The notes: generated by a model not told the origin, from the letters alone. DNA of 64,000 bases from an uncultured virus (IMG/VR IMGVR_UViG_3300021426_000082) (IMGVR_UViG_3300021426_000082); one strand, 5' to 3'; positions 18,825 to 62,442 are shown, counted from the stretch's first letter. Numbers and translations: made by a program.

Positions 18825-19043
18825 ATGCAGACTGTCTTAATATCAGGTGTTGACGGAACTATTGTAAACTTTGAACACGTAACAAGGATTTACAAACAGG
18901 GCGGCTATATACATGCCGAACTCACCACAGGGAAACAGATTCCTTTGTATTTCAACAAGAATTATGATGCGGTAAACAGTTACTTCGACAGCCTTATTGA
19001 CAACATACTTGACATAAGAGTTTTCAGGATGAGAACAGACTAA
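18825..19043 (+). CDS. hypothetical protein
   Basis: GAGGTG RBS; stop overlaps terL start. Confidence 0.55.
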   Translation: MQTVLISGVDGTIVNFEHVTRIYKQGGYIHAELTTGKQIPLYFNKNYDAVNSYFDSLIDNILDIRVFRMRTD

Positions 19044-21658
19044 TGGACAATCTTCAGATAATTGACCAGCTTTTACAGACAGACTTAACCAACTATATCA
19101 ATCTCAGGGACCTGCTTGCAATGTCCAAAGAAATACGCGGGGACGATGCGGAAATGTCCAAGCTGATCATGCAGAAAGTAAGGGAAGTAGCAATAGCACA
19201 ATGTATGGAAGGCAGGGACGATTTCTATACACTGTATAATGATGCTCTGCTCTTGATGGCTTCTGTACACAAAGATTTTGATTCGTTCCTGCTTTATGTC
19301 GAGAAAGACAGGGAGCCGCGTGAATCATTTTATATACCGCGTCGCAAACAGCTTCTTGATTATGTCGTCAAGCCGATGCAGAGACTTCTGGATGGTGAGA
19401 TTGATATACTTTCAATCTCAATGCCACCTGGAACCGGAAAAGGGCAATTACCAAGTGCAAAGATACTGACACCTGATGGATTTAGAAGGCTTGGCGATAT
19501 AAGGGTAGGTGATTTTGTAATATCAGGCACAGGGAACGTTGCTGAAGTCCTTGGCGTGTTCCCGAAACCGCGGATGCCTGTATACGAAGTAGTGTTTGAG
19601 GACGGAACGAAAGTGAAGTGCTCACAGGACCACATATGGCGCGTCCAGAACAGAGACGGCCGCAGATACGGATGGTATCAGAATGTAGAAGTAAAAGACA
19701 TGCTTGACCGCGTTGTAATTGACCGCCATCTGAATTACAGTGTCGATTATGTTCCGCCGATAGATATTCAGGACAAAGAACTGCCGATAGACCCGTATGT
19801 GTTAGGGGTACTGCTTGCTGACAACAAGTACGGAGTGGGCATCAGGGTAACGACTGCTGATAAATATATTATCGACGCCATCACAAACCTGGCACCCATT
19901 ACAGCCAGACACGTCATCGGGAATGATTACAGGGTTGTCTCAGATGGTTGGCTTGAACGCGAACTTACAAAATACGGCCTGTTCCGTATAAGCAATCAGG
20001 ATAAATTTATACCGGACGATTACAGGTACAATACTTACTACAACCGATTTGAGCTATTGCGCGGACTGCTCGATATGGACGGCGTTATAGATGGCGACAG
20101 CGTTAAGTATCAGGCACCTTCAAAAAGATTTGCGTCATACCTGATTGAACTGGTGCAGTCGGTAGGTGGATACGCCAAAGAAGAAAACGATCTTGAAATC
20201 ACTATAAAATTCGGGGACGTGGAGCATAACCCGTTCCATGTACCATACAAAGCAGATGGCTTCTTGCCGTCTATGGACAGAAAACTGTGGAAACGTCGCA
20301 TAAGGCGGATTGATTACGTGGGTGATATGGAAACGATATGTATTTACATTAATGACCCATCTCATCTGTATATCACAGACGGTTATGTGATTACCCACAA
20401 TACGACGCTCGGAGAGTTCTTTACTGCTTTTTATATGGGGTTGTACCCTGAACGTTATAATCTGATGTCGTCTCATTCCGGTTTTATGACGCGGATGTTC
20501 TATGACGCGGTACTTAATATCATTACGTCAAAAGAATACCGATGGAGTGATATTTTTCCTACTGTGAAATTCGAATCCACAAACGCCAAAGAGGAATCAA
20601 TCAACCTTGGCAAGTGGAAGCCGTTTAAATCATTGACATGCAGACCTATCCACGCGTCTCTGACAGGTGTTACAAGATGCAATGGCCTGCTATATTGTGA
20701 TGACCTGGTATCCGGTATTGAAGAAGCGTTATCCATAGACCGCCTGAACAAGCTGTATGGAGAATATGTGACCGATTTAAAGTCACGAAAAAAACAAGGG
20801 GCCGCCGAACTGCATATTGCGACCAGATGGTCAGTACACGATCCGATTGGAAGATTACAAAGACAGTACGACAATTCCGGAAATGCGGAGTTCGTATCGG
20901 TTCCGGATATAGATGTCCATACGGGCGAATCAAATTTCGATTACTCATACGGAACGGGCTTCGACACGGCCTATTTCAACGATATGGAAAAAACCATGGA
21001 CGATGTAACATATCGTTGTCTCTACAAAAACGATCCGATAGAACGCGAAGGAATCTTGTACCACCCGAATGAACTGCTCAGGTATTTTGATCTTCCTGTT
21101 GACGACGAGGGAAAAACAAAGGAACCCGACGCAATCATAGCGGTGTGCGATACAAAAGATACCGGAACGGACTACAATTCGCTTCCAGTGGTTTACGTTT
21201 ATGGTGACAAGTATTATTTAGAGGATATTGTATTTAAGAATATTGACCCCGGCACGCTTGATGAACTTAACTCAAATATGCTTGTCAAACACAGGGTACA
21301 GGAAGCCAGGTTCGAATCAAACAAAGAAGGCTCCAGAACCGCAAATGAGGTAGAACGGAAAGTAAAAGAAAAAGGTGGCAGATGCCACATAACCAAAAAG
21401 TACACTACTCAGAACAAAGAGACAAAAATAATCGTGACCTCATCCTGGGTGAAACAGCACGTTTATTTTAAAGATGAGACTTGCTATGAACCGAAGTCTG
21501 ATTACGGCGTTTTCATGAGTTATTTATGCAGCTACACACAGTTGGGGAAGAACAAGCATGATGACGCACCTGATTCGATGGCCATGCTTGCGCAGTTCGC
21601 AGACAATTTGATCGGAACAGCGATGGTCGTGATGAGCAGGGAGGAATTAGGGTTTTGA
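19043..21658 (+). CDS. terL: terminase large subunit with intein
   Basis: ISMPPGTGK|TT Walker A after splicing, LLYCDD Walker B, ATRW, RNase H nuclease (VCDTKDTGTD, KHDDAPDS). Confidence 0.92.
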   Translation: MDNLQIIDQLLQTDLTNYINLRDLLAMSKEIRGDDAEMSKLIMQKVREVAIAQCMEGRDDFYTLYNDALLLMASVHKDFDSFLLYVEKDREPRESFYIPRRKQLLDYVVKPMQRLLDGEIDILSISMPPGTGKGQLPSAKILTPDGFRRLGDIRVGDFVISGTGNVAEVLGVFPKPRMPVYEVVFEDGTKVKCSQDHIWRVQNRDGRRYGWYQNVEVKDMLDRVVIDRHLNYSVDYVPPIDIQDKELPIDPYVLGVLLADNKYGVGIRVTTADKYIIDAITNLAPITARHVIGNDYRVVSDGWLERELTKYGLFRISNQDKFIPDDYRYNTYYNRFELLRGLLDMDGVIDGDSVKYQAPSKRFASYLIELVQSVGGYAKEENDLEITIKFGDVEHNPFHVPYKADGFLPSMDRKLWKRRIRRIDYVGDMETICIYINDPSHLYITDGYVITHNTTLGEFFTAFYMGLYPERYNLMSSHSGFMTRMFYDAVLNIITSKEYRWSDIFPTVKFESTNAKEESINLGKWKPFKSLTCRPIHASLTGVTRCNGLLYCDDLVSGIEEALSIDRLNKLYGEYVTDLKSRKKQGAAELHIATRWSVHDPIGRLQRQYDNSGNAEFVSVPDIDVHTGESNFDYSYGTGFDTAYFNDMEKTMDDVTYRCLYKNDPIEREGILYHPNELLRYFDLPVDDEGKTKEPDAIIAVCDTKDTGTDYNSLPVVYVYGDKYYLEDIVFKNIDPGTLDELNSNMLVKHRVQEARFESNKEGSRTANEVERKVKEKGGRCHITKKYTTQNKETKIIVTSSWVKQHVYFKDETCYEPKSDYGVFMSYLCSYTQLGKNKHDDAPDSMAMLAQFADNLIGTAMVVMSREELGF
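19442..20401 (+). mobile_element. class 3 intein (320 aa) with LAGLIDADG domain in TerL Walker A
   Basis: starts GQLPSAKILTPDG, block B CSQDHIW, block F TICIYI, ends YITDGYVITHN followed by Thr; LLRGLLDMDG. Confidence 0.88.
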
Positions 21659-22696: not shown

Positions 22697-22716
22697 GTTT
22701 ATCAAGAGGTATTTAA

Positions 22717-23241
22717 ATGCAGTTTGAAAAGGTGTCAAAGGACGCGTTTGCAAGCGATATGAAAAGGACCTACTTCAGTACATATCGCGGTGCAGAGGAC
22801 ATAGACTTTCTTATAGACAAGGCGTATGAGAGAATCAGCACCCCTGTCAGAAAAACAAAACGTTCGGCGGGATATGATTTCTTCATCCCTGTAAGTGTAG
22901 GGCTTATGCCCGGTGAGAAATGCGTTGTTCCTTCCGGAATCAAACTGAAGTTTGACGATAAAGACGACTGCTGGCACCTCAACATCTATTCGCGTTCAAG
23001 CATTGGGATCAAAAAAGGTGTGATCGTCAGCAACGGGACCGGGATAATTGATGCAGACTACTACAACAATCCGGATAACGAAGGAGACATCATGATTGCC
23101 TTGTGGAACACAAGCAAAAGTTTCCAGCAGATAGTGAGCGGGACCAGATGCTGTCAGGGGATATTTGAAATCCATGGGCTAACGGTGGATGATAGTGCCG
23201 ATGGTGAACGTATGGGGGGACTTGGGAGCACAGGCTTATGA
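22717..23241 (+). CDS. dut: trimeric dUTPase
   Basis: SAGYDF, SRSS, GIIDADYY, QGIF, RMGGLGSTG. Confidence 0.92.
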   Translation: MQFEKVSKDAFASDMKRTYFSTYRGAEDIDFLIDKAYERISTPVRKTKRSAGYDFFIPVSVGLMPGEKCVVPSGIKLKFDDKDDCWHLNIYSRSSIGIKKGVIVSNGTGIIDADYYNNPDNEGDIMIALWNTSKSFQQIVSGTRCCQGIFEIHGLTVDDSADGERMGGLGSTGL

Positions 23242-23426
23242 TGACGGCACCATGTAAAGACTGCCCGGACCGGAAAACGGGATGTCACTCAACTTGTCAT
23301 AAATACATTGAATTTGATAACAGGAACAAAGAACGAAGGGAAAAGCGTTTGCGGTCCTTTGAAGCTGTAAGTGTGACACGCGAATCAATCCACAGGGCAA
23401 TAAAAGAAAAACATGTAAGACACTGA
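23238..23426 (+). CDS. small Cys-rich phage protein
   Basis: PCKDCPDR..GCHSTC..Y. Confidence 0.6.
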   Translation: MMTAPCKDCPDRKTGCHSTCHKYIEFDNRNKERREKRLRSFEAVSVTRESIHRAIKEKHVRH

Positions 23427-23508
23427 ATTTTACTCAGAGTAGAGAAAAACGACTTGACGTAAAAAATGGTTTAAACTGAAGGAAAATACTGGCTGGATTT
23501 AAATAATA

Positions 23509-23613
23509 ACCGCGGGACACGCGGGGATAGCCTGCTTATGCTCAGCCCGGCAGGGCTGTCGAACAGGAAGCCCCCACTTCTTAGCGCCAGCGAAAGTGGT
23601 GGGAGTATGTCAC
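23509..23613 (+). mobile_element. orphan IS200/IS605 right end / TnpB omega-RNA scaffold
   Basis: ACCGCGGGACACGCGGGGATAGCCTG...GAACAGGAAGCCCCCACTT..AAGTGGTGGGAGTATGTCAC; no tnpB ORF. Confidence 0.75.
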
Positions 23614-23627
23614 AATCAGTAATAGTT

Positions 23628-23747
23628 CAGTTGACTTGACCGCTGTAAGGTGATGGACATTCCACTCACCGGAGCTTTTCCGGAATTTGGAGTTTTATGG
23701 TTTACCGATTTCAGGAAGGCATCAAGAACGATGCAGAGAAGAACATA
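23628..23747 (+). ncRNA. orphan Cas12f-type tracr scaffold plus one 36-nt repeat and guide
   Basis: CAGTTG-ACTTGA-CCGCTG-TAA-GGTGA..TCACC scaffold as at 58602 and 60214; repeat 23692-23727 resembles 58692-58727. Confidence 0.75.
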
Positions 23748-23900
23748 AAAATTTATTGCCCGCATTGCAGGAAATACGGTCGCGACAAACTACTTTTCCA
23801 AGTCGATAAGACAACGACAGGGAGAGTGATTATAAAATGCCGTGGCTGTCGTAACCTTGTGACAATAGAACTGGTAAAAGGTGAGCCGAAAGAGCCGTGA
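23697..23900 (+). CDS. Com-like zinc-ribbon regulator
   Basis: IYCPHC...KLLF...IIKCRGCR; GGAG RBS; first gene of late region. Confidence 0.65.
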   Translation: MVYRFQEGIKNDAEKNIKIYCPHCRKYGRDKLLFQVDKTTTGRVIIKCRGCRNLVTIELVKGEPKEP

Positions 23901-23916
23901 AAGCGGCTCTTTTTTT
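23883..23916 (+). terminator. terminator with tandem GAGCC motif (copy 1)
   Basis: GAGCCgaaaGAGCCG-TGAAAG-CGGCTC-TTTTTTT. Confidence 0.7.
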
Positions 23917-23977
23917 GGATTTTAAGCAAGAATCTGGAGTTTTGCGAAAACGTGAAGCCATCAAAAGAGAGGGAAAC

Positions 23978-25555
23978 ATGCTTGAAAAAGATGTGACTCG
24001 TCAGTATGGACGTTTAAAGATAAGGACTGACGAAAAAGAAATCACAAAAGATAATATAGAAGCCGTAGTATCCCTTGCATGGGCCGAACATCAGCACAAC
24101 GCTAAACGCGAGGAATGGCTCATAGATTACAAAAAAGGCGACCAGCCTATTCTCGACAGGGTTAAAAAGGTACGCAAGGATCACAATGCAAAGGTAGTAG
24201 AGAATAACGCGTCGAAGATCGTAGACTTCCATAAGGCATACTGCTTTTCACAGCCCATTACACTTGTGCAAAGAGCAAAGAGAGAGGTGGGGAAACCGGA
24301 ACAGGCCGGAGAGGAAGATGATTTAAAAATCAGTCTCCTTAACAAAATGATGGTTGAGCAGGGCAAGCCGGGAAAAGACATCAAATTAGCAGAAGATGTC
24401 TTTTCGTGCGGACTTGGATATAAGATGGCTATCCCCATCAGGGAAAAACTTGTTAGGCGCGGACGTTGTTCTGCGTTTGAAATCTCTGTCCCGAACCCCC
24501 TCACAACATTTATGGTATATTCCAATGATGCCTATGATGAGGAAATGCTGGCATGTACCTACAATGTCCGGAAAGACGGGAAAGTGGACCTGACTGCCTA
24601 CTCTGAAAACTATTGTTTTGAACTGCGGGCAGAAAAGGTAAGTTCACTCGGAACGACGAATATAGCGGACTTTAAGATGGTCAAAAAGGTCACACCGAAC
24701 ATCCTGGGTATTATCCCTATTGTTGAGTATTCGATTACAGACCGTATGGCTATCTTTGAAAAGGTCATCCCGATCATGGATGCGATTAACCTGATTGATT
24801 CAGACCGCGTTAATGATATTACACAGCACGTCCAGTCCTTATTGTGGATGCATAACTGCCTGCTTGACAAAGAACAGAAAGAACAGCTTGTGGATGGCAA
24901 TGGTGTCGTGATGACAAAATCCACAGGTGACGGGCACGAAGCGAAGATTGTCTATTTGTCGCAGGTTCTTGACCAGTCCGAGGTTCAGAAAGAAGTTGAC
25001 CACCTTGTAGCGCAACTGCAGGAAATCACATCGACACCATCATGGAGAGAAGCAAGCGGAGGCTCCACGACAGGTGCAATGCAGTTGTCTAACGGTTGGC
25101 AGTGCGCGGAACTGTTCGCAAAGGTTGTTGAACAGCAGTTCAACGCAGCAGAACAGAAATTCCTGGACATTTGCATACAGATTATCAAGGCGGACGAAAG
25201 AGATTTTGACGGCCTGAAAGACATAGAGCTTGCTGACATTGAACCTCATTTCTGCCGTACAAAGACTTACGATCTTGTGAGCAAAGTCAACGCACTTGTG
25301 TCATTGTTAAATGTAGGTGTCGATGGACTTACAGCTTTCAATACAGTTGCATTGTTTACTGACTGTCAGCAGGCGTGGATTGATTCTGCACCTACGATCC
25401 TGAGACTGCAGGAGAACATCGGAAAGACGCAAACCGATATGTCGTGGCGGGCAACGCGTGACGAAGATGGAAACGGCGGAGAAAACAATACAGAAAAAGA
25501 CATAACCGAAGAAACAATGTCACCGAGCAAGGTGGCGGAGGTGGACGGTGTATGA
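23978..25555 (+). CDS. portal protein (SPP1 gp6-like)
   Basis: YKKGDQPIL, KVVENNASKIVDF, IPIVEY, FEKVI..MDAIN; position. Confidence 0.85.
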   Translation: MLEKDVTRQYGRLKIRTDEKEITKDNIEAVVSLAWAEHQHNAKREEWLIDYKKGDQPILDRVKKVRKDHNAKVVENNASKIVDFHKAYCFSQPITLVQRAKREVGKPEQAGEEDDLKISLLNKMMVEQGKPGKDIKLAEDVFSCGLGYKMAIPIREKLVRRGRCSAFEISVPNPLTTFMVYSNDAYDEEMLACTYNVRKDGKVDLTAYSENYCFELRAEKVSSLGTTNIADFKMVKKVTPNILGIIPIVEYSITDRMAIFEKVIPIMDAINLIDSDRVNDITQHVQSLLWMHNCLLDKEQKEQLVDGNGVVMTKSTGDGHEAKIVYLSQVLDQSEVQKEVDHLVAQLQEITSTPSWREASGGSTTGAMQLSNGWQCAELFAKVVEQQFNAAEQKFLDICIQIIKADERDFDGLKDIELADIEPHFCRTKTYDLVSKVNALVSLLNVGVDGLTAFNTVALFTDCQQAWIDSAPTILRLQENIGKTQTDMSWRATRDEDGNGGENNTEKDITEETMSPSKVAEVDGV

Positions 25556-30788: not shown

Positions 30789-31177
30789 AAAAATATGGCT
30801 CTTACACAGAGCTTGTCAATAAAGTTTGGTTGCCGAAAGCGCTTTACCTTGGTATCAGCGAGGAAAAATTCTGGCATATGAATCCGAGAAAGATGGAGCC
30901 GTATGCAGAAGCCATGAACATGAGAGTTCAGGATGAAAATCGCAGAATCGAGGTAACGGCATGGGCGAATGGCCTTTATGTATATAAAGCGGTTGGTGCG
31001 ATATTCGGCAAACACGCGCCTAAATATCCGAGCAAGCCTGACACCATCTTCCATGATGGGAAAGCAGAAAAGGATAGCATGACCGATGCTGATAGATTCT
31101 ATCAATACATGGTATGGCGTAACGCCCAAAAAAACAGCAAACCCACGGGGAATAGGCTGACGAGCCGAAAAACGTAG
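30698..31177 (+). CDS. tail assembly chaperone -1 frameshift extension (gpT-like)
   Basis: -1 frame open from the slippery site into ORF 30830-31177 (GISEEKFWHMNP). Confidence 0.75.
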   Translation, partial: GFWDDRGGDGDRSGRDQRSDYERDREKKEIKKYGSYTELVNKVWLPKALYLGISEEKFWHMNPRKMEPYAEAMNMRVQDENRRIEVTAWANGLYVYKAVGAIFGKHAPKYPSKPDTIFHDGKAEKDSMTDADRFYQYMVWRNAQKNSKPTGNRLTSRKT

Positions 31178-31251
31178 TCCTTGCGTCTTTTCCCGTGTTT
31201 GCATTTTAAAGGACAATTCAAGGTTAAAAGGACGACCATAGGAGATGCGAA

Positions 31252-55086: not shown

Positions 55087-55986
55087 ATGGCTAACGAATT
55101 AGCAAAAACACAACAGCGCGGTATTTCTGCATACCTTAATAATCCGGAAGTAAAACAGAATGTTATAAGCGTTGTTGGTGATAAGGAATCACAGAAGTTT
55201 ATAAGCTCCATTGTCAGCGCGGTGCAGACCAATCCGGCACTGGCAGAGTGCAGTAATAAAAGCATCCTGTCAGTAGCGTTGCTCGGACATTCCCTTAATC
55301 TGCCACAGTCGCCACAGTTGGGCATCTTTTATTTTGTCCCTTACAACAACTCGAAAAAGATCAAAGACCCGAATACGGGCCGGACAGAAACTATCACGGT
55401 CAAAGAGGCGACGTTCCAGTTATCCTGGAAGGGATATATACAGCTTGCTATGCGGTCCGGTCAGTACAAGCAGATTAACGCCACAGAGGTCAGAGAAGGA
55501 GAGCTTATTTCCTATAATCCTATCACGGAGGAAATTGACCTGCGGGCAATCACTGACTTTAATGACAGAATGAATAGGCCCGTGATTGGCTACTATGCGT
55601 TCTTTACTCTTACAAACGGATTCCGGAAAGAGCTTTACTGGTCCCGTGAACAGATGGAATCACATGCAAGCAGGTACAGCAAGGCTTACAAGAGTGATAA
55701 GAAGTACGGCTCTTCAAGGTCGTTCTGGTCCACTGATTTTGACGCGATGGCCAAAAAGACAATGATCCGTCAGCTTATTTCCAAATGGGGAATTATGTCA
55801 GTCGATATGCAGACCGCCTACGAATCCGACATGGCCATGATTGACGACAATGGAAATCCGGATTATGTAGACAATAAACCGGAGGTCGAAACCGCGACTG
55901 ACGTATACCTGGAAGAACAGCCAGTGGAAACCGAACCCGTTGAAGGTGAGATTTTAGACGACGACGGAAACCCGTTATTCGCATAA
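55087..55986 (+). CDS. recT: RecT-family single-strand annealing protein
   Basis: FYFVPY, FQL.WKGYIQLA.RSGQY, W..DFDAMAKKT. Confidence 0.92.
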   Translation: MANELAKTQQRGISAYLNNPEVKQNVISVVGDKESQKFISSIVSAVQTNPALAECSNKSILSVALLGHSLNLPQSPQLGIFYFVPYNNSKKIKDPNTGRTETITVKEATFQLSWKGYIQLAMRSGQYKQINATEVREGELISYNPITEEIDLRAITDFNDRMNRPVIGYYAFFTLTNGFRKELYWSREQMESHASRYSKAYKSDKKYGSSRSFWSTDFDAMAKKTMIRQLISKWGIMSVDMQTAYESDMAMIDDNGNPDYVDNKPEVETATDVYLEEQPVETEPVEGEILDDDGNPLFA

Positions 55987-55995
55987 GGAGGCACA

Positions 55996-56226
55996 ATGGA
56001 GATTTTGACAACCGTATCGAGGATGATTAAGGATTCCTCAGATATTCCTATCAAACACGGGGACCTGATTGTTTTTGAGACAGCAGACCACCGTTCTGTT
56101 ATTGGAAGATTTGTGGAGATTACGGACCGTGGTTCTTTGAGGTTTGAGAGTACGATCAGTGGCAACGAGTTCTGCGTCATGCCGAAGAGCATCGTTGTCA
56201 GCCATCATATGAAAGAGGACGAATGA
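55996..56226 (+). CDS. hypothetical protein
   Basis: AAGGAGG RBS. Confidence 0.55.
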   Translation: MEILTTVSRMIKDSSDIPIKHGDLIVFETADHRSVIGRFVEITDRGSLRFESTISGNEFCVMPKSIVVSHHMKEDE

Positions 56227-57050
56227 TGGAGTTAACAAACGACAATTATTACTCTATGGAGAGCAATATGTACTACTGCTCAGTCAGTCAGTACAAATCA
56301 TTCATAGGCACACCAAGCAATCCCGCCTGTGAAGCTGCGGCCATGGCAGACCTGAGAGGTGAGATAGAACATAAAGCAGTATCAACTGCATTGTTAGTCG
56401 GTTCTTATGTTGATGCGTATTATTCCGGTGAGTTTGATCAGTTCATTGACGAGCATCCTGAGATATTCAGAATGAACGGGACACTGAAATCAGCGTTCAA
56501 GCAGGCAAATACAATGATTGCCAGAAGTAAAAAAGATGCGCTTTTCCAGAGATATATGGAAGGCGACAAACAGCTTATTCTCACTGGTGACATTGAGGGT
56601 GTCCCGTTCAAAGTCAAGATAGACAGTACGGACCACAAGAGGATTACCGACTTAAAAACGGTCCGGAAAATCTCTGAGACGTTTTTTGTCAAGGATTCCG
56701 GTGAGAGAATCACGTTCATAGAAAAATGGAACTATGACCTGCAGGCCGCTATTTATCAGGAAATATACTTCCAAAACTACGGAAAGAGATTGCCGTTCTA
56801 TATATGCGCAGTCGATAAAAGCCGCAGTTCGATAGATGGTTCTTTCCACCCCAGGATTGCGGTCATACAGATACCGCAGTCAGCTATGGACGACAGGCTT
56901 GCAGAGGTCAGACATAATGTACGTCGCATAGAAATGTTAAAGACCGGAGAGATAGAGCCGATTGCCTGTGGTGTATGTGACTACTGCGCAGACACATTAC
57001 CGCTTACAAGGCCGATCAGCATTGATGAATTGTTAACGGAGGTGCAATGA
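56223..57050 (+). CDS. PD-(D/E)XK exonuclease (DUF3799/RecE-like)
   Basis: LT.DNYYS, SVSQYK, K.KID, DLKT, YDLQAAIYQ, CG.CDYC. Confidence 0.85.
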   Translation: MMELTNDNYYSMESNMYYCSVSQYKSFIGTPSNPACEAAAMADLRGEIEHKAVSTALLVGSYVDAYYSGEFDQFIDEHPEIFRMNGTLKSAFKQANTMIARSKKDALFQRYMEGDKQLILTGDIEGVPFKVKIDSTDHKRITDLKTVRKISETFFVKDSGERITFIEKWNYDLQAAIYQEIYFQNYGKRLPFYICAVDKSRSSIDGSFHPRIAVIQIPQSAMDDRLAEVRHNVRRIEMLKTGEIEPIACGVCDYCADTLPLTRPISIDELLTEVQ

Positions 57051-58591
57051 GACTTGTAAAGATTTCTGCATCATCGGTGCAGATTAAGTCAAACGACAAA
57101 GAGTTTGAGGGATTAAGGATCAATGACCTGATGAGGATTACAGATGGCACAGCAAACCTTGTGGTCATGGTCAGCAACATCACGTCAGCAGATACGGACG
57201 ATGACGAGATGTTTATCAGGGCGACAAAGATGCGCGTTGTAGACTGCGACATCATAGGCTCGATTACGGACGGTCATTTCCATACTGACATTAATACGTA
57301 TCCCACAACCGACGTAAGCATTAGCGGTATCACTCAGGACGAGTTCAGGAACATGCTCATGAAGTTTGAGAACAACGGATTCAAGCTGGGCGTGTATGCC
57401 GACTATGAAGTAGACGCTTATGTAAATGCGAACAAGTTGTTCCAGAGACACGCCTGCCTGCTTGGTAATACGGGTTCCGGTAAATCCGAAACGGTAGCAA
57501 AGATACTGCAGGAGATTTCCAAAAAGCGGTCAACGAATGTCCTGGTATTCGATATTCACGGTGAGTATTCGAACATTAGCTACGTCAAGAGCTATAAGGT
57601 AGGAACGGATGACTGTCCTATTCCCATCTGGATGTTCGGTTTTAATGGTATCGTATCCAATATCCTGCGCATCAAAGAAGAAAGCTCAACAGTGGTCATG
57701 ACTGCACTCAGGAAATGCTATTACCAGGTGTGTCCGGATGGTAAAGAAAACAAACCTATATGGTTCGACTACAAAGCCTTAATCAATGCCATGGTCAACC
57801 TCAACACCGAGGTTATAGGTACGGGCGACTTCTATAAGACAGGCGACAGAGCAGGTCAGGAAAAGACAAAGGCCGGAGAGTTCAACGGAAAGCTCGATAC
57901 AGTGATTGCAAAACTCAAAGACCGCTTAGAGGATTCCCGTTACAGGTTCCTTTTCAACGATCCTGGACAGGGGGCTTTACACACATTGTTCTCTATCCTG
58001 TTTGAAAAAGGTGGCGTAAAGAGTTTTGATTTTTCAGATGTTCCCCATGATGTAGCAGTCCCGATCATCGGAATTATCACAAAACTTGCCTATGACGGTC
58101 AGCGGACACAGAGAGATATTTGCCCCATGGTCATTTTCTGTGACGAGGCACATGTATATATCCCTGCATCCGATCAGTTATCATCCTCACAGCGACGCAT
58201 GACAGAGACGTTTGAAGAGATTGCAAAAGAAGGCCGTAAGTTCGGCGTGACACTTTTCCCGGCAACGCAGCGTCCTTCAGAGCTTAACAGAACAATCCTG
58301 GCTCAGTGCGGTAATTTTATTGTAATGAAACTGAACAACGAGAATGATAAGACCATCGTTAAAGGTATGTTACCCGAAGGTAATGTAGGCATCGTAGAAT
58401 CAACAACAATGTTCAGGCCGGGTGATTGTATCGTCATCGGTGATGCAAGTCCTATCCCTATCAAAGTGCATGTTGACCTCGCAGACGAAAGACCCACAAG
58501 CAGGACTATTGATTTCTGGTCAGAGTGGGATAGGGAAAGAGAACAGGCAGACGTGAATGACATTATAAGCAGCTATTTATCATCGTTTTGA
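57047..58591 (+). CDS. HerA-like ATPase (DUF87, with HAS-barrel-like N-terminus)
   Basis: RHACLLGNTGSGKS, FDIHGEY, CDEAH, IAKEGRKFG, TQRPSEL, QC.N. Confidence 0.85.
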   Translation: MRLVKISASSVQIKSNDKEFEGLRINDLMRITDGTANLVVMVSNITSADTDDDEMFIRATKMRVVDCDIIGSITDGHFHTDINTYPTTDVSISGITQDEFRNMLMKFENNGFKLGVYADYEVDAYVNANKLFQRHACLLGNTGSGKSETVAKILQEISKKRSTNVLVFDIHGEYSNISYVKSYKVGTDDCPIPIWMFGFNGIVSNILRIKEESSTVVMTALRKCYYQVCPDGKENKPIWFDYKALINAMVNLNTEVIGTGDFYKTGDRAGQEKTKAGEFNGKLDTVIAKLKDRLEDSRYRFLFNDPGQGALHTLFSILFEKGGVKSFDFSDVPHDVAVPIIGIITKLAYDGQRTQRDICPMVIFCDEAHVYIPASDQLSSSQRRMTETFEEIAKEGRKFGVTLFPATQRPSELNRTILAQCGNFIVMKLNNENDKTIVKGMLPEGNVGIVESTTMFRPGDCIVIGDASPIPIKVHVDLADERPTSRTIDFWSEWDREREQADVNDIISSYLSSF

Positions 58592-58601
58592 TAGATGTGC
58601 T

Positions 58602-58669
58602 CACCTGACTTGACAGGTGTAAGGTGAGGGAAGATTCCACTCACCAGAGCCTTCCGGAAGGCATCAAGG
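58602..58669 (+). ncRNA. natural single-guide scaffold (tracr fused to repeat half)
   Basis: CACCTG-ACTTGA-CAGGTG, GGTGAG/CTCACC, GCCTT-CCGG-AAGGC, ends ATCAAGG. Confidence 0.75.
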
Positions 58670-58764
58670 ATAACTGTACAGATTCTTTTTTGTTTTATGG
58701 CCTTCTGGTTTCGGTAAGGCATCAAGGAGGAAATAGCAAACTTGCTTTCGGGAAGGCATCAAGA
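58651..58764 (+). CRISPR. degenerate micro-array upstream of Cas12f-like gene
   Basis: three AAGGCATCAAG ends (58668, 58726, 58763); one full 36-nt repeat 58692-58727; spacers of 22 and ~15 nt. Confidence 0.65.
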
Positions 58765-58848: not shown

Positions 58849-60201
58849 ATGGCAAAAGATAGTTATGTTATGACGCGCAAAATCCAGGTGATTCCGGTAG
58901 GAGATAAGGAGGATATAGACAGGGCATACAAGTACATTCGTGATGCACGATACGTCCAGAACAGAGCGTACAATCTCCTTATCTCAACGGTATATGCGGC
59001 GATCATATCAAGAAAGAGTAACGAAGAAATAAACACGATATACAAAAGGGGTTCCAGAAAGCCAAAAGAAAATGATCCCGAATACAGTCTTTATGACTAT
59101 GACACATATCATTTTCCGGTAGGGCTTCCGATAGCGTCGGGGCTTAGCCAGCGTGTTAAGAGCGATATTAAAAAAGCAAAGCAAAACGGATTGTTTAAGG
59201 GTAATTCGTCCCTGCCTAACAAGAGAAGAACATCGGCGTTAGAGCTGCATCCTGATTATGTTAGGGTGATGGCTGAGAACAAAAGGCCCAATGGGTTGTA
59301 TCACAAGTATGATTCTGATGACGAGTTCTACGAGGCGTTAAGGACTGGAACACCAGAAATATACTGGAAGTTCTGCAACGGAATAGAGTTCAAGATGGTC
59401 ATACGGAACCCAAGGAAAGACGCATGTATCCGGTCAGAACTCGAAAAGATATTCAAAGGCGAGTATGCGATTAACGGGTCGCACATTAACATCTCAGACA
59501 GCGACAACAAGATAATTCTTTTCCTGACATTCACTGTACCTAAATCAGACAGGCAGTTGCTTGAAGATGTGACAGTAGGTGTAGATGTAGGGATGGCGAT
59601 ACCTGCGGTATGTGCGCTTAATAGCAATCCTGGGCCGAGATTATTTACGGGAACATACATCGTAGACGGCAATACTCACAAAGGAACGTCAGAGCTATTA
59701 AGACAGCGGACTTCAATTCAGAATCAGCTTAGAAGGCATCAAAGCGGACTTAAATACAGTAGTGGTGGTCACGGCAGGGCAAAGAAGCTACGGTCGCTTG
59801 AAAAGCTGAAGGACAGGGAAAGGAATTTTGTAAACACCTATAACCACAGGATTTCAAAAGCGGTCGTTGATTTTGCGCTGAAACACAAAGCGAAATATAT
59901 CAACATCGAAGAATTAAAAGGATATGATGCTAATGATTTGATTCTTCGTAACTGGTCATACTACGAACTGCAGAACATGATCACTTACAAGGCAGAGCGT
60001 TACGGAATCACTGTCAGGAAAATAGAACCCGCCTATACTTCTCAGACGTGTTCATGTTGCGGAAACGTCAGCAAAGCACAGAGAAGGAGCCAGAGTGAAT
60101 TTGTCTGCATTAATCCTGATTGCGAGAACTACATGAAAGTGGTCAATGCGGATTACAATGCCGCCAGAAACATCGCAATGTCAACTAAATATGTAAAATA
60201 G
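58849..60201 (+). CDS. cas12f: Cas12f-like (TnpB-superfamily) compact RNA-guided nuclease
   Basis: RuvC D246 (VGVDVG), E354 (INIEEL), D435 (NADYNAARNI); GGHGRAKK, LRNWSYYELQ, YTSQTCSCCG; flanked by tracr-like scaffolds and repeats. Confidence 0.88.
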   Translation: MAKDSYVMTRKIQVIPVGDKEDIDRAYKYIRDARYVQNRAYNLLISTVYAAIISRKSNEEINTIYKRGSRKPKENDPEYSLYDYDTYHFPVGLPIASGLSQRVKSDIKKAKQNGLFKGNSSLPNKRRTSALELHPDYVRVMAENKRPNGLYHKYDSDDEFYEALRTGTPEIYWKFCNGIEFKMVIRNPRKDACIRSELEKIFKGEYAINGSHINISDSDNKIILFLTFTVPKSDRQLLEDVTVGVDVGMAIPAVCALNSNPGPRLFTGTYIVDGNTHKGTSELLRQRTSIQNQLRRHQSGLKYSSGGHGRAKKLRSLEKLKDRERNFVNTYNHRISKAVVDFALKHKAKYINIEELKGYDANDLILRNWSYYELQNMITYKAERYGITVRKIEPAYTSQTCSCCGNVSKAQRRSQSEFVCINPDCENYMKVVNADYNAARNIAMSTKYVK

Positions 60202-60213
60202 TCAGCGATGGCT

Positions 60214-60270
60214 CGGTAGACTTGACTGCCGTAAGGTGAGGTCAAACAGGCACTCACCAGAACCCTTGCA
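60214..60270 (+). ncRNA. tracrRNA-like scaffold with anti-repeat
   Basis: CGGTAG-ACTTGA-CTGCCG, GGTGAG/CTCACC; ACCCTTG complementary to repeat CAAGGGT. Confidence 0.75.
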
Positions 60271-60285
60271 AAGTTAATAATTGGC

Positions 60286-60443
60286 CCTTTGGAGGACTGT
60301 AGAACCACAAGGGTATCAAGGCTACAGTGTTGGACATAGAAAACATTGATGCCTTTGGAGGACTATTAAACCGCAGGGGTGTCAAGGGCAAACTTAGCAA
60401 ATGCTACCCTTTGGAGGACTGTAAAATCACAAGGGTATTAAGG
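60286..60443 (+). CRISPR. mini CRISPR array: three 36-nt repeats, spacers of 30 and 20 nt
   Basis: CCTTTGGAGGACTGTAGAACCACAAGGGTATCAAGG at 60286, variants at 60352 and 60408. Confidence 0.85.
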
Positions 60444-60893: not shown

Positions 60894-61367
60894 ATGGCGT
60901 GGGTAAAAGGAATCCCGCCGAAAATGCTGCATGACAAGCTCGGTATTTATCGCGAGGGCGGGTGGCACGCAGAGATGGACCGTTGCTGGGTTGACGGGAC
61001 CTATTGTGTATGCTCACGAATCATTAGAACACAATTCGGCAACGTGGAGCATGTAACGATCACAAAGGGCGGTGGTACGTATGACGGTTCCGGTGAGGTG
61101 ACTTGGGCGGAAAAGATGCGTATTAAGAATGAACTGTTCGGGGAGAACAGATTTGCTATTGAGGTTTTCCCGAAACAGAAGAACCTGGTTGATGTGTGCG
61201 ATGTCTATCACCTTTGGGTATTTGACAAAAAGGTAAATATGCCTTTTGGAATCGGCAAAAAAGAAATGGTCCATGCTATCAACCGCGGTTATAACATAAC
61301 GCCCGCTGAACTGGAAACGTTAAACAGCGCAATTAACAAAGGAGAGACTATTGGAAGTCTGGCGTGA
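60894..61367 (+). CDS. phage hypothetical protein
   Basis: TWAEKMRIKNELFGE...AIEVFP...LVD....HLW. Confidence 0.65.
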   Translation: MAWVKGIPPKMLHDKLGIYREGGWHAEMDRCWVDGTYCVCSRIIRTQFGNVEHVTITKGGGTYDGSGEVTWAEKMRIKNELFGENRFAIEVFPKQKNLVDVCDVYHLWVFDKKVNMPFGIGKKEMVHAINRGYNITPAELETLNSAINKGETIGSLA

Positions 61368-61896
61368 GGTTCCAGGTTATAACGGAAGGTATTTTGCAAG
61401 CAACAAGGGCCGGATTAAAAGCTATACCGGACACATACTTTCGATGATCAAAAGGTGCCGTGGTGAGAATGTAAGATATGTTGTCACGACAACCAAAAGT
61501 GACAACCGCAGGGGGGCGGCGAGTGTAGCCAGAATGGTATGGCTTGCTTTTAATGGTATTCCACCTCCGGGATACATGGTGGTGCATAAGAATGGTTTTC
61601 AACACGACAACAGGCTTTCAAACCTTATGTTGATGCCAAGAAAGTCACCGCCGCTGATACCACCTAACCAGAAACCAGTCATCAAAATATCAAAATCTGG
61701 AGAGATATTAGAGCATTACACATCTGCAAAAGAGGCGGGTGACGCTAACTACTTTGCAGATACGACTATATCAAGGAGGGCGTTAGGGCAGGTCAAATAT
61801 CCTTTGGATGGCGGGATAGACTTTTGCTATGACACGAACGAAAGCTACAAAATGGCCCTTAAAAGGCTGGGACTTAAACCGAAGAACCTGTATTGA
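61351..61896 (+). CDS. NUMOD4-HNH endonuclease
   Basis: EVW..VPGY.GRY..SN.GR, HKNG..DN...NL. Confidence 0.8.
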   Translation: MEVWREVPGYNGRYFASNKGRIKSYTGHILSMIKRCRGENVRYVVTTTKSDNRRGAASVARMVWLAFNGIPPPGYMVVHKNGFQHDNRLSNLMLMPRKSPPLIPPNQKPVIKISKSGEILEHYTSAKEAGDANYFADTTISRRALGQVKYPLDGGIDFCYDTNESYKMALKRLGLKPKNLY

Positions 61897-61920
61897 CGAA
61901 AGGGACAAACGCTTTTGGGA

Positions 61921-62442
61921 ATGAAGGAACAGACACCTGAAATATGGAAGGACATTCCTGGTTATGGTGGTAAATATCAGGCATCTATACATGGCAATAT
62001 CCGAAGGGTATATGAAAGCGGAAAGACAAGGCAATTAACACCTTGGCATCGTAAGATGAGAGGAAGTCCCCGGCTTGTAGTCAAGCTGACCCACGAAGGA
62101 AAGAGCAGGGAGGCCGTGGTCTTAGGTCTTGTGGCCCTGACGTTCATAGGGCCTCGTCCAGAGGGATACGTGCCATATCACATAAACGGTATGCAGAGCG
62201 ATAACAGCGTCAGGAACATTGCGTATATATCCAGAAAAGAACTTGGACGACTGACCGGACCGGGAGCACGCAGAAAGCCAGTGGCTAAGATAGACGCTAC
62301 AGGAAATGTGGTCGAATACTATTCGTCTGCAAGGGAAGCGGGCAGAAAGAATCATATGTCATATCAGGCCATCTTGGACAGGTGCAACGGAAAAATAAAG
62401 AACCCCACGGCTCTTGATGGACATAACTATTTATGGGATTGA
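61921..62442 (+). CDS. NUMOD4-HNH endonuclease
   Basis: EIWKDIPGY.GKY, HING..SDN...N, NUMOD1-like tail. Confidence 0.8.
   Translation: MKEQTPEIWKDIPGYGGKYQASIHGNIRRVYESGKTRQLTPWHRKMRGSPRLVVKLTHEGKSREAVVLGLVALTFIGPRPEGYVPYHINGMQSDNSVRNIAYISRKELGRLTGPGARRKPVAKIDATGNVVEYYSSAREAGRKNHMSYQAILDRCNGKIKNPTALDGHNYLWD

What the first reader, a model, noticed from the sequence alone, without database searches (positions are those of the whole stretch)
23628..23750. Orphan Cas12f guide cassette 35 kb from the nuclease, overlapping the start of the Com-like gene
Seen: a complete scaffold plus one repeat (GTTTTATGGTTTACCGATTTCAGGAAGGCATCAAGA, 23692-23727, similar to 58692-58727). The ATG of the Com-like ORF (23697) lies inside the repeat, so the presumed guide (ACGATGCAGAGAAGAACATA...) is native coding sequence. 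Inference: this behaves like a transposon-end guide that targets cassette-free alleles of this locus in related phages (homing), or nuclease binding to the RNA controls translation of the late regulator.
Basis: partly seen in the sequence, partly recalled or inferred. Interest (0 to 1): 0.8.

Follow-up and report, generated by a model that had tools for sequence, protein, structure and literature searches.

The report
Displaced guide-RNA cassette in a phage
A gut phage that carries a miniature Cas12f/TnpB-type RNA-guided nuclease keeps a third, self-contained guide-RNA gene 35 kb away from the nuclease, and its short guide segment differs between related phages, so it behaves like a CRISPR spacer and not like a homing guide.

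Summary
Window 23628-23727 carries a full guide scaffold: two hairpins, an anti-repeat, a linker and a 36-nt repeat. It matches the RNA cassette upstream of the 450-aa Cas12f/TnpB-like nuclease (58849-60201), and the ATG at 23697 lies inside the repeat.

Three things were missed. A further cassette (C, 60214-60443) lies just downstream of the nuclease. In related phages this nuclease family is normally flanked by several self-contained tracr-plus-mini-array cassettes. One other phage record of 18 searched also has cassettes about 54 kb from its nuclease.

Contigs from four public runs all keep the scaffold at this locus. The repeat/spacer part is replaced or lengthened in two of them, and homology resumes exactly at 23747. 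The 19 nt after the repeat (23728-23746) are therefore allele-specific, like a spacer, and not conserved native coding sequence. No cassette-free allele was seen.

Best reading: a displaced natural single-guide RNA gene for the phage nuclease, probably still usable, although it carries two broken stem pairs that are unique in the family. No target or PAM was found. Control of translation of the small zinc-ribbon ORF is possible but untested.

The parts
23628..23675 (+). Locus A tracr-like core: hairpin 1 (6-bp stem, loop ACTTGA), hairpin 2 (GTGAT..ACTCAC) and 3' tail
   Evidence: Covariance model hits: 51.0 bits with R1 and 29.6 bits, E 6.4e-6, with the independent model R2. Family covariation. 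A is the only one of 31 units with broken pairs at columns 5/14 and 27/50.
23673..23691 (+). Anti-repeat (GCTTTTCCGGAA) and linker (TTTGGA) joining the tracr part to the repeat
   Evidence: The predicted hairpin pairs this stretch with 23704-23720. The linker corresponds to the family-wide TTTGAG junction.
23692..23727 (+). Single 36-nt repeat, ending in the shared 3' handle GGCATCAAGA
   Evidence: 28 of 36 positions identical to 58692-58727. The 3' half is 94.7% identical to 58746-58764.
23728..23746 (+). 19-nt spacer-like guide segment, specific to this allele
   Evidence: Joints in contigs of runs X3 and X4 end at 23747 with other letters before it. P0242 differs here. Spacers of 18-22 nt also occur in loci B and C. 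No match elsewhere.
23697..23900 (+).
   Evidence: ORF list. Only 2 homologues in the large protein collection, conserved from K18 onward. No Pfam family at E 0.01. Weak PHROG hits only, gpCom E 0.0032 over 18 residues.
23888..23923 (+). Intrinsic-terminator-like hairpin and T-run closing the cassette-plus-ORF unit
   Evidence: 11-bp stem, 4-nt loop and T-run.
23503..23613 (+). Separate 111-nt GC-rich structured element inserted just upstream of the cassette
   Evidence: An RNA-library contig joins 23502 to 23614. Many contigs in 3 runs match only 23508-23614 and have unlike flanks. No Rfam hit, tRNA or database match.
58602..58669 (+). Locus B tracr core fused to a short stem (GCCTTCCGGAAGGC) and handle: a compact single-guide form
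58670..58764 (+). Locus B: 22-nt guide ending in T6 (58670-58691), full repeat (58692-58727), 18-nt spacer (58728-58745), truncated repeat (58746-58764)
   Evidence: Read. Periods of 58 and 37 nt between handle copies.
58849..60201 (+). 450-aa Cas12f/TnpB-like RNA-guided nuclease
   Evidence: Pfam Cas12f1-like_TNB, 4.8e-21. NCBIfam guided_TnpB, 163 bits against a cut-off of 100. PDB 8hr5_A 2.4e-66 and 9nzp_A 4.6e-52. D246, E354 and D435 are invariant in 19 relatives.
60214..60443 (+). Locus C: tracr core (60214-60263), three 37-nt repeats of its own type (60285-60321, 60351-60387, 60407-60443), and spacers of about 29-30 nt and 19 nt
   Evidence: 50.7 bits with the independent model.

Best explanation
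Locus A (23628-23746) is a displaced, self-contained guide-RNA gene for the phage's own Cas12f/TnpB-like nuclease.

Anatomy. It encodes a tracr-like core of two hairpins and an anti-repeat. A short linker joins these to one CRISPR-type repeat, so the transcript folds back on itself into a natural single-guide RNA. The last 7 nt of the repeat stay unpaired, followed by a guide of about 19 nt.

Family context. The nuclease family normally carries several such tracr-plus-mini-array cassettes on both sides of its gene. Each cassette has a repeat matched to its own anti-repeat. No cas1, cas2 or cas4 is present. Cassette A is one of these units that has come to lie in the gene-poor stretch upstream of the portal gene.

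The guide. The guide segment is allele-specific among related phages. It is therefore a spacer, and it most likely directs the nuclease against foreign DNA such as a competing phage or other mobile element, as other virus-borne mini-arrays do. It is not a homing guide that reads the flank.

The ORF. The small zinc-ribbon ORF downstream has simply acquired its start codon and first 17 codons from the repeat and spacer.

Shown here: the anatomy, family membership of the RNA, covariation, variability of the guide, and absence of a nearby nuclease.

Inferred: that the RNA is made, loaded and used for cleavage; the kind of target; and that self-cleavage is avoided because the repeat end, not a PAM, precedes the guide in the phage's own DNA.

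The confidence of 0.55 is for the whole statement including function. That the element is a cassette of this family I hold at about 0.9.
For: (1) Identity with the nuclease-linked cassettes is shown and by the independent model (E 6.4e-6).

(2) Family architecture. 96-98 tracr-like cores were found in 80 IMG/VR loci of relatives, typically fused through a TTTGAG linker to the first 36-nt repeat of a 66-nt-period array. Many loci hold 2 to 4 cassettes.

(3) Structure. In 31 units, 11 of 15 predicted pairs show compensatory changes. In 18 units folded, the anti-repeat pairs with the 3' part of its own repeat and mostly leaves about 7 nt (4 in the three window units) free before the spacer, even though the sequences are quite different: AT-rich in relatives, GCYTTYC:GGAAGGC in A and B, CCCTTG:CAAGGG in C. 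Only 2 of 22 differences between A and B/C in the core fall on pairs that break.

(4) Variable guide. Run X2's contig is colinear over 22715-24699. Run X17's contig keeps 23614-23762. Run X3 replaces 23681-23746 by 85 letters. Run X4 replaces 23726-23746 by 69 letters and shows a different repeat variant after 23678. All resume at 23747. Homologue P0242 differs in exactly those codons.

(5) Spacers of 18-22 nt also stand in B and C.

(6) The nuclease looks intact: D246, E354 and D435 are invariant in 19 relatives, and the GVD.G, IN.E.L and NADYNAARNI blocks align to PDB 8hr5.

(7) There is precedent for displacement. One of 18 other phage records searched (G013, 99% complete) has two further cores about 54 kb from its nuclease and no TnpB-type ORF beside them.
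Against: Cassette A is the weakest of the three. With the independent model it scores 29.6 bits against 45.0 and 50.7.

It is the only one of 31 units with a broken pair in hairpin 1 (U.C). It is also the only one with a U in place of the otherwise invariant G of the G-C pair at alignment columns 27/50 in hairpin 2. RNAfold rescues the second by shifting the bulge, but a protein contact could still be lost.

The fold of the whole unit is not unusually stable (z -1.29, -0.99).

No sigma-70-like promoter was found upstream.

There is no downstream repeat. Similarity of 23747-23790 to the repeat is marginal: 3-6% of controls reach it. The guide's 3' end would therefore have to be trimmed out of a transcript that runs on into the ORF.

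No protospacer was found in the window, in GenBank phages or in IMG/VR, so neither target nor PAM is known.

How spacers change without an adaptation module is unknown.

RNA-library contigs cover the locus, but they cannot show a discrete small RNA.
Confidence: 0.55

Rival explanations
1. Decaying remnant. Cassette A is a relic of duplication or recombination of a guide cassette. It is no longer loaded by the nuclease and survives only because the zinc-ribbon ORF now depends on its ATG and linker for translation.
For: Both pairs that are broken in only one of the 31 units occur in A, one of them at the otherwise invariant G-C of hairpin 2. A has the lowest score with the independent model. It has a single repeat and no terminal repeat. 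No target was found. No promoter was predicted. Scaffold-only units without an array also occur in relatives, for example L011 at 3416.
Against: The scaffold is kept at about 95% identity in all 4 related contig sets, while the repeat/spacer part turns over in module-sized steps of +19 and +48 nt. That is what a live array does. Anti-repeat and repeat of A are still mutually complementary although the repeat differs from B's at 8 of 36 positions. The hairpin 2 change can be absorbed by a bulge shift.
Confidence: 0.25
2. Bifunctional leader. The guide precursor is also the 5' leader and start of the zinc-ribbon mRNA. Loading of the nuclease onto the hairpin, or its processing, hides or removes the GGAG and AUG. 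Nuclease level would then gate translation of the small protein.
For: GGAG (23689-23692) and AUG (23697) lie in the linker and loop enclosed by the predicted anti-repeat:repeat stem. Cassette, ORF and a strong terminator form one compact unit, 23628-23923. A small zinc-ribbon ORF also follows the array directly in the four closest IMG/VR loci, L001-L003 and L051. The +48-nt allele in run X4 keeps the reading frame.
Against: The linker motif is family-wide and is not an evolved ribosome site. The N-terminal 17 codons are not conserved. The zinc-ribbon ORFs of L001 and the window are not detectably homologous. Frame retention has a one-in-three chance. Cassettes abutting the next gene's start are common simply because they sit in tight intergenic gaps (locus C, and L009). 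Nothing here measures binding or translation.
Confidence: 0.1
3. Homing guide. As at a TnpB transposon end or with a CAST delocalized crRNA, the guide reads the flank of its own insertion. The nuclease would cut cassette-free alleles in co-infecting relatives, and recombination would copy the cassette in.
For: The nuclease belongs to the TnpB family. It lies beside RecT and a PDDEXK exonuclease-like gene. The guide is identical to the adjacent DNA by construction. The phage carries other homing-type genes: two NUMOD4/HNH_3 ORFs at 61351-62442.
Against: The 19 nt next to the repeat are not conserved in relatives, and homology starts only at 23747 (P0242). All 4 related contig sets keep the scaffold, so no empty allele was seen. 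No IS200/IS605 transposase or transposon ends were detected among 65 window ORFs at the Pfam threshold. The same architecture occurs in ordinary multi-spacer arrays of relatives.
Confidence: 0.07

Closest known systems
Type V-F (Cas12f) CRISPR-Cas and the TnpB-to-Cas12 intermediates called TranC
   Same: A miniature RuvC nuclease of about 450 aa. Its best solved relatives are Cas12f-type chains and a TnpB. It has a tracr-like RNA with an anti-repeat, 36-nt repeats, and the spacer 3' of the repeat. Relatives occur in Caudoviricetes and Clostridia. Passages of preprint 10.64898/2026.03.27.714800 report such systems, including in phages.
   Different: No adaptation genes are present. Each mini-array has its own tracr, physically fused to its first repeat. 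There are several cassettes per nuclease. In the window's cassettes, repeats can be truncated and spacers are 18-30 nt; relatives' arrays have a regular 66-nt period. One cassette lies 35 kb away. The NCBIfam Cas12f2 cut-off is not reached (104.6 of 450 bits). I could not place the protein in a named TranC clade because no reference sequences were held.
Virus-borne CRISPR mini-arrays and single repeat units
   Same: Very short arrays in a viral genome without an adaptation module, thought to serve inter-virus competition or regulation. Sources: Shmakov et al. preprint 10.1101/2023.03.03.530964, sections 25-26 read; review PMC11656645, passages.
   Different: Those arrays borrow the host's effector and copy host repeats. 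Here the phage brings its own nuclease and its own tracr. The unit is a complete single-guide gene, not a bare repeat.
Delocalized crRNA of CRISPR-associated transposons (type V-K, I-F)
   Same: A guide encoded outside the array, with an atypical repeat, serving the same effector (PMC11656645, passages).
   Different: The CAST guide matches a conserved chromosomal homing site and works with a transposase. Here no matching site was found, no transposase was found, and the guide varies between alleles.
TnpB omega RNA (IS200/IS605)
   Same: A single RNA with scaffold plus 3' guide, and a nuclease of the same protein family. The compact form at 58602-58691 (scaffold, short stem, guide, T-run) looks most like it.
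   Different: An omega RNA overlaps the 3' end of tnpB, and its guide is the DNA flanking the transposon end (recalled from Karvelis 2021 and Meers 2023, which I saw only in a reference list). Here the RNAs are separate cassettes with CRISPR-type repeats, and the guide is not the conserved flank.

Membership tests
Type V-F CRISPR-Cas (Cas12f) | Small TnpB-derived effector with RuvC D-E-D and a zinc-ribbon (TNB) domain | tested here: met
   Pfam PF07282, 4.8e-21. PDB Cas12f chains down to 2.4e-66. D246, E354 and D435 are invariant in 19 relatives and aligned blocks are conserved. That these three are the catalytic residues rests on recalled motif knowledge.
Type V-F CRISPR-Cas (Cas12f) | CRISPR array next to the effector gene | tested here: met
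   Mini-arrays B and C flank the gene. Relatives have regular 66-nt-period arrays.
Type V-F CRISPR-Cas (Cas12f) | tracrRNA whose anti-repeat pairs with the repeat | tested here: met
   By prediction only. The hairpins covary, and the anti-repeat:repeat duplex recurs in 18 units with unrelated sequences.
Type V-F CRISPR-Cas (Cas12f) | Adaptation module (cas1, cas2, cas4), present in V-F1 | tested here: not met
   No such Pfam family among 65 window ORFs at E 1e-4.
Type V-F CRISPR-Cas (Cas12f) | Curated NCBIfam score for Cas12f2 | tested here: not met
   104.6 bits against a cut-off of 450.
Type V-F CRISPR-Cas (Cas12f) | PAM-dependent, RNA-guided cleavage of double-stranded DNA | not testable with these tools
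   Needs a PAM-depletion or cleavage assay.
IS200/IS605 TnpB with omega RNA | Protein passes the RNA-guided TnpB family model | tested here: met
   NF040570, 163 bits against a cut-off of 100.
IS200/IS605 TnpB with omega RNA | Guide RNA overlaps the 3' end of the gene and reads the DNA flanking the transposon end; TnpA or transposon ends are present | tested here: not met
   The cassettes are separate, lie upstream and downstream of the gene, and carry repeats. The guide is not conserved in relatives. No Y1 transposase was found.
CAST-type delocalized homing crRNA | Spacer matches a site next to the element's own insertion point or a conserved attachment site | tested here: not met
   No second match of 23728-23746 in the window with up to 4 mismatches, and no seed match beyond 10 nt. 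The host genome is not held.
Viral mini-array used in inter-virus competition | Spacer matches a related virus | tested here: inconclusive
   No match in GenBank phages and no exact match in IMG/VR. Rumen viromes are poorly represented in both, and mismatched targets would be missed.
   PHROG gpCom E 0.0032 over residues 10-27 only. No Pfam family. The protein-language-model search points instead to Cys_rich_KTR-like clusters, score 0.94 with 153-163 shared features, which is only a lead.

The most novel reading that the evidence does not exclude
In this phage-borne nuclease family, guides are not acquired by an adaptation machine. They exist as modular guide genes (tracr, linker, repeat, spacer) that duplicate, recombine and relocate within and between phage genomes. 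At locus A one such module has merged with a protein gene, so a single transcript is either loaded as a guide or translated. That would couple nuclease occupancy to expression of a small zinc-ribbon protein placed ahead of the portal gene.
Probability: 0.12. Interest if true: 0.8.

Novelty: new variant of a known kind. Interest (0 to 1): 0.5.

Why it matters
Three points would matter if the locus A RNA is functional.

- Natural single-guide RNAs, in which the tracr part is covalently joined to the repeat, sit on the proposed path from the TnpB omega RNA to split tracrRNA and crRNA. Here fused, compact and split forms lie side by side around one nuclease.
- A phage could extend the target range of a tiny nuclease with guide genes placed anywhere in its genome. 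Array-anchored searches would miss them.
- The system turns over spacers without cas1 or cas2, which raises the question of how.

For annotation, gene callers start a protein inside a CRISPR-type repeat at this locus.

Tried and rejected
**Searches for relatives**
- No whole genome is held for the window.
- No GenBank phage shares DNA with 22700-24700.
- IMG/VR scans found no close relative with the nuclease alone, the portal, the zinc-ribbon alignment or the scaffold pattern.
- The single metagenome scan with the scaffold pattern returned only two contigs, and over the stretches I read they are identical to the window (L081, L082). They are not independent.

**Protospacer searches (all negative)**
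- Window, up to 4 mismatches and seed matches.
- GenBank phages for loci C and A. Only chance-level hits at E 5.
- IMG/VR exact scans for a 24-mer of the 30-nt spacer of C and for the 19-mer of A.

**Other tests**
- A degenerate terminal repeat inside the ORF: local alignment score 18, reached by 5.8% of random windows and 2.6% of shuffles. Not accepted.
- Promoter scans found nothing upstream of A, B or C on the + strand.
- Rfam: no family at the locus. The only weak hit is sroD, E 2.3.
- No tRNA or tmRNA in the window.
- The 111-nt element has no match in GenBank phages and no exact 22-mer match in IMG/VR.
- Zinc-ribbon ORF against the ORF after the array in L001: not significant, E 0.08.
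- Earlier notes of this scan: nothing on record.

**RNA-library contigs of run X17**
- They cover 23390-23950 in pieces. Such contigs show neither strand, ends nor level, and may contain DNA, so I do not count them as evidence of a small RNA.
- Parts without cover in X17 are not interpreted.

**Whole-genome model searches of 5 bacterial genomes**
- Cores were found only beside the nuclease loci. Only 150 of about 800-1800 candidates per genome were scored, so absence elsewhere is not shown.

**Cas12p ('hacker')**
- Considered and set aside. Those proteins are 500-700 aa, and the match to 9jfs_A is only 4.1e-9 over the zinc ribbon.

Full report
**1. The observation**

It aligns with the region just upstream of the 450-aa ORF 58849-60201.
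- A 45-nt scaffold block is 86.7% identical, and a 19-nt block covering the 3' half of the repeat is 94.7% identical.
- By my count on the alignment, the two 36-nt repeats (23692-23727 and 58692-58727) agree at 28 of 36 positions.
- The 11-mer that ends the repeat occurs exactly four times, once at locus A and three times at locus B. With 1 mismatch allowed there are 9 matches against 1.14 expected, and 0 of 100 shuffles reach 9.
- The ATG at 23697 lies inside the repeat and opens a 67-aa ORF.

**2. The protein**

The 58849 product matches Pfam Cas12f1-like_TNB (4.8e-21). It passes NCBI's RNA-guided TnpB family model (163 bits, cut-off 100) but not the Cas12f2 model (104.6 of 450 bits). Its best solved relatives are Cas12f-type chains (8hr5_A, 2.4e-66) and a TnpB aligned over its full length (9nzp_A, 4.6e-52).

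D246, E354 and D435 are invariant in 19 relatives. They sit in the GVD.G, IN.E.L and NADYNAARNI blocks that align to 8hr5. That these are the RuvC catalytic residues is recalled motif knowledge.

More than 1,500 homologues exist, at about 50% identity for the top 120. Some are labelled Caudoviricetes or Bacteroidales. Genomic relatives lie mostly in Lachnospiraceae and other Clostridia.

**3. The window**

It is a temperate tailed phage of a Gram-positive host. Pfam finds a tyrosine recombinase, an S24 repressor, RecT, a PDDEXK-like protein, an SPP1-type portal, an SU10-type capsid protein, a holin, a GH25 lysin with SH3 domains, and two further ORFs with CW_7 repeats. None of 65 ORFs matched cas1, cas2, cas4 or an IS200/IS605 transposase at E 1e-4.

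**4. What the family's RNA looks like**

In 80 IMG/VR loci that encode relatives at 38-53% identity, the nuclease gene is flanked by mini-arrays with a 66-nt period, on one or both sides and often two to four per locus.

Each array is preceded by its own tracr-like core: hairpin 1, a GAA-rich joint, hairpin 2 (GTGAG..ACTCAC) and an anti-repeat. Typically the core is joined through a TTTGAG linker directly to the first repeat.
- An alignment of 31 cores gives two hairpins in which 11 of 15 pairs show compensatory changes.
- In the 18 units that I folded, the anti-repeat pairs with the 3' part of its own repeat and mostly leaves about 7 nt (4 in the three window units) free before the spacer. 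The paired sequences are unrelated between cassettes.

The first guide of each cassette is therefore a natural single-guide RNA. I found no description of this fused, multi-tracr layout in five full-text searches. Those searches used few terms and do not cover subscription journals.

**5. The window has three cassettes**

- B (58602-58764) begins with a compact form: core, short stem, handle, 22-nt guide and T6. It continues with a full repeat, an 18-nt spacer and a truncated repeat.
- A has the canonical family layout with one repeat.

A model built from other phages only scores C at 50.7 bits, B at 45.0 and A at 29.6 (E 6.4e-6). Nothing else exceeds 10.4 bits.

**6. Is A intact?**

Mostly. 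Its anti-repeat and repeat are still complementary, although the repeat differs from B's at 8 of 36 positions.

A is, however, the only one of 31 units with a broken pair in hairpin 1. It is also the only one with a U in place of the otherwise invariant G of a G-C pair in hairpin 2. RNAfold absorbs the second change by pairing the U with the neighbouring A and bulging the C. This is the main reason for keeping a sizeable 'remnant' rival.

**7. The guide is not conserved native sequence**

Contigs of four public animal-gut runs were laid on 22700-24700 at 80% likeness or more.
- Run X2: one contig is colinear across the whole stretch (90 other letters and 18 gaps in 1,985 nt).
- Run X17, an RNA library: one contig holds 23614-23762 nearly unchanged.
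- Run X3: a contig follows the scaffold to 23680, has 85 other letters in place of 23681-23746, and resumes at 23747.
- Run X4: one contig ends in the linker and goes on with a different repeat variant. Another aligns to the repeat 23688-23725, has 69 letters in place of 23726-23746, and resumes at 23747.

The replaced letters themselves were not shown.

The zinc-ribbon protein has only two homologues in the large collection. P0241 has the same N-terminus. P0242 differs throughout the first 17 codons and is five residues shorter, then is nearly identical from K18 on.

So the scaffold and the gene body are conserved, and the piece between them turns over in steps of +19, +48 and -15 nt. That is how an array behaves. 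It is not what a transposon-end guide predicts, because that guide should equal the conserved flank. All four runs keep the scaffold, so no empty allele was seen.

**8. Targets**

None was found in the window, in GenBank phages or in IMG/VR. The kind of target is therefore inferred by analogy with virus-borne mini-arrays.

In the phage's own DNA the guide is preceded by the repeat end. That is the usual way arrays escape self-cleavage. The PAM is unknown.

**9. Displacement elsewhere**

The family model was run over 18 whole IMG/VR records; 20 were asked for and 2 are not held. It found cores only within about 3 kb of the nuclease gene in 16 of them, and none in one.

In the remaining record (G013, 174,896 bp, 99% complete), two further cores lie about 54 kb away. 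Each is followed by a short stem, a handle-like motif and about 25 nt; the first unit then ends in a terminator-like hairpin. Neither has a TnpB-type ORF beside it. Displaced cassettes are thus uncommon but not unique to this phage.

**10. The ORF**

It is a four-cysteine zinc ribbon with no Pfam family, and 'Com-like' rests on a weak partial PHROG hit.

Its only in-frame start is the ATG in the repeat. The GGAG before it corresponds to the family-wide linker.

A strong terminator follows the ORF, so cassette and ORF form one compact unit. A guide would have to be trimmed from a longer transcript, or the transcript serves both roles. Coupling between nuclease loading and translation is possible but untested.

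**11. Verdict**

The cassette is real and displaced, and belongs to a phage-borne Cas12f/TnpB-like system with modular, self-contained guide genes. The homing reading is disfavoured, the regulatory reading remains open, and function as an extra guide is the most likely but unproven.

Noticed in passing
window 23503-23613: A 111-nt GC-rich element with three predicted hairpins (z -2.0) lies 14 nt upstream of the cassette. One RNA-library contig joins 23502 to 23614 without it. Many contigs in three runs match only 23508-23614 and have unlike flanks, at up to 160x summed depth. It looks like a small mobile or multi-copy structured element. No Rfam, tRNA, GenBank-phage or IMG/VR match was found.
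   Followed up: partly
window 60214-60443: A third tracr-plus-mini-array cassette lies directly downstream of the nuclease gene, with its own repeat type and spacers of about 29-30 and 19 nt. Its last repeat abuts the ribosome site and start of the next ORF (60468).
   Followed up: yes
window 58602-58691: The first unit of locus B is a compact single-guide form: core, a 14-nt palindromic stem, the handle, a 22-nt guide ending in T6. It resembles a TnpB omega RNA or an engineered truncated sgRNA, next to split-form repeats.
   Followed up: partly
L083 3016-3160 and 3740-3870 (G013:C1:125515-126370): Another phage carries two tandem orphan cores about 54 kb from its nuclease, beside an integrase and a GmrSD_N-domain gene. 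Each is followed by a short stem, a handle-like motif and about 25 nt; the first then ends in a terminator-like hairpin. The surrounding module is duplicated.
   Followed up: partly
L009 1864-2003: In one relative a core plus a single repeat is followed at once by the ribosome site and ATG of the nuclease gene itself. The would-be guide is therefore the gene's own start region, a possible autoregulatory or extraneous guide.
   Followed up: no
L001 2753-2938, and L002, L003, L051: In the four closest IMG/VR loci a 59-61-aa zinc-ribbon ORF follows the array directly. It is not detectably homologous to the window's ORF (E 0.08).
   Followed up: partly
window 55087-58591: RecT, a PDDEXK-like (DUF3799) protein and a HerA/FtsK-like ATPase stand immediately upstream of locus B and the nuclease. 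This puts a cutting enzyme beside a recombination module.
   Followed up: no
window 61351-62442: Two adjacent NUMOD4/HNH_3 homing-endonuclease-like ORFs lie between the nuclease region and a DNA methylase gene.
   Followed up: no
window 19043-21658: An 871-aa ORF upstream of the portal region has no Pfam family at E 1e-4. I first took it for a large terminase with an insertion, but that is unverified.
   Followed up: no
window 31145-31212: Rfam int-alpA RNA match above the gathering score (41.2 bits), inside the structural gene region.
   Followed up: no
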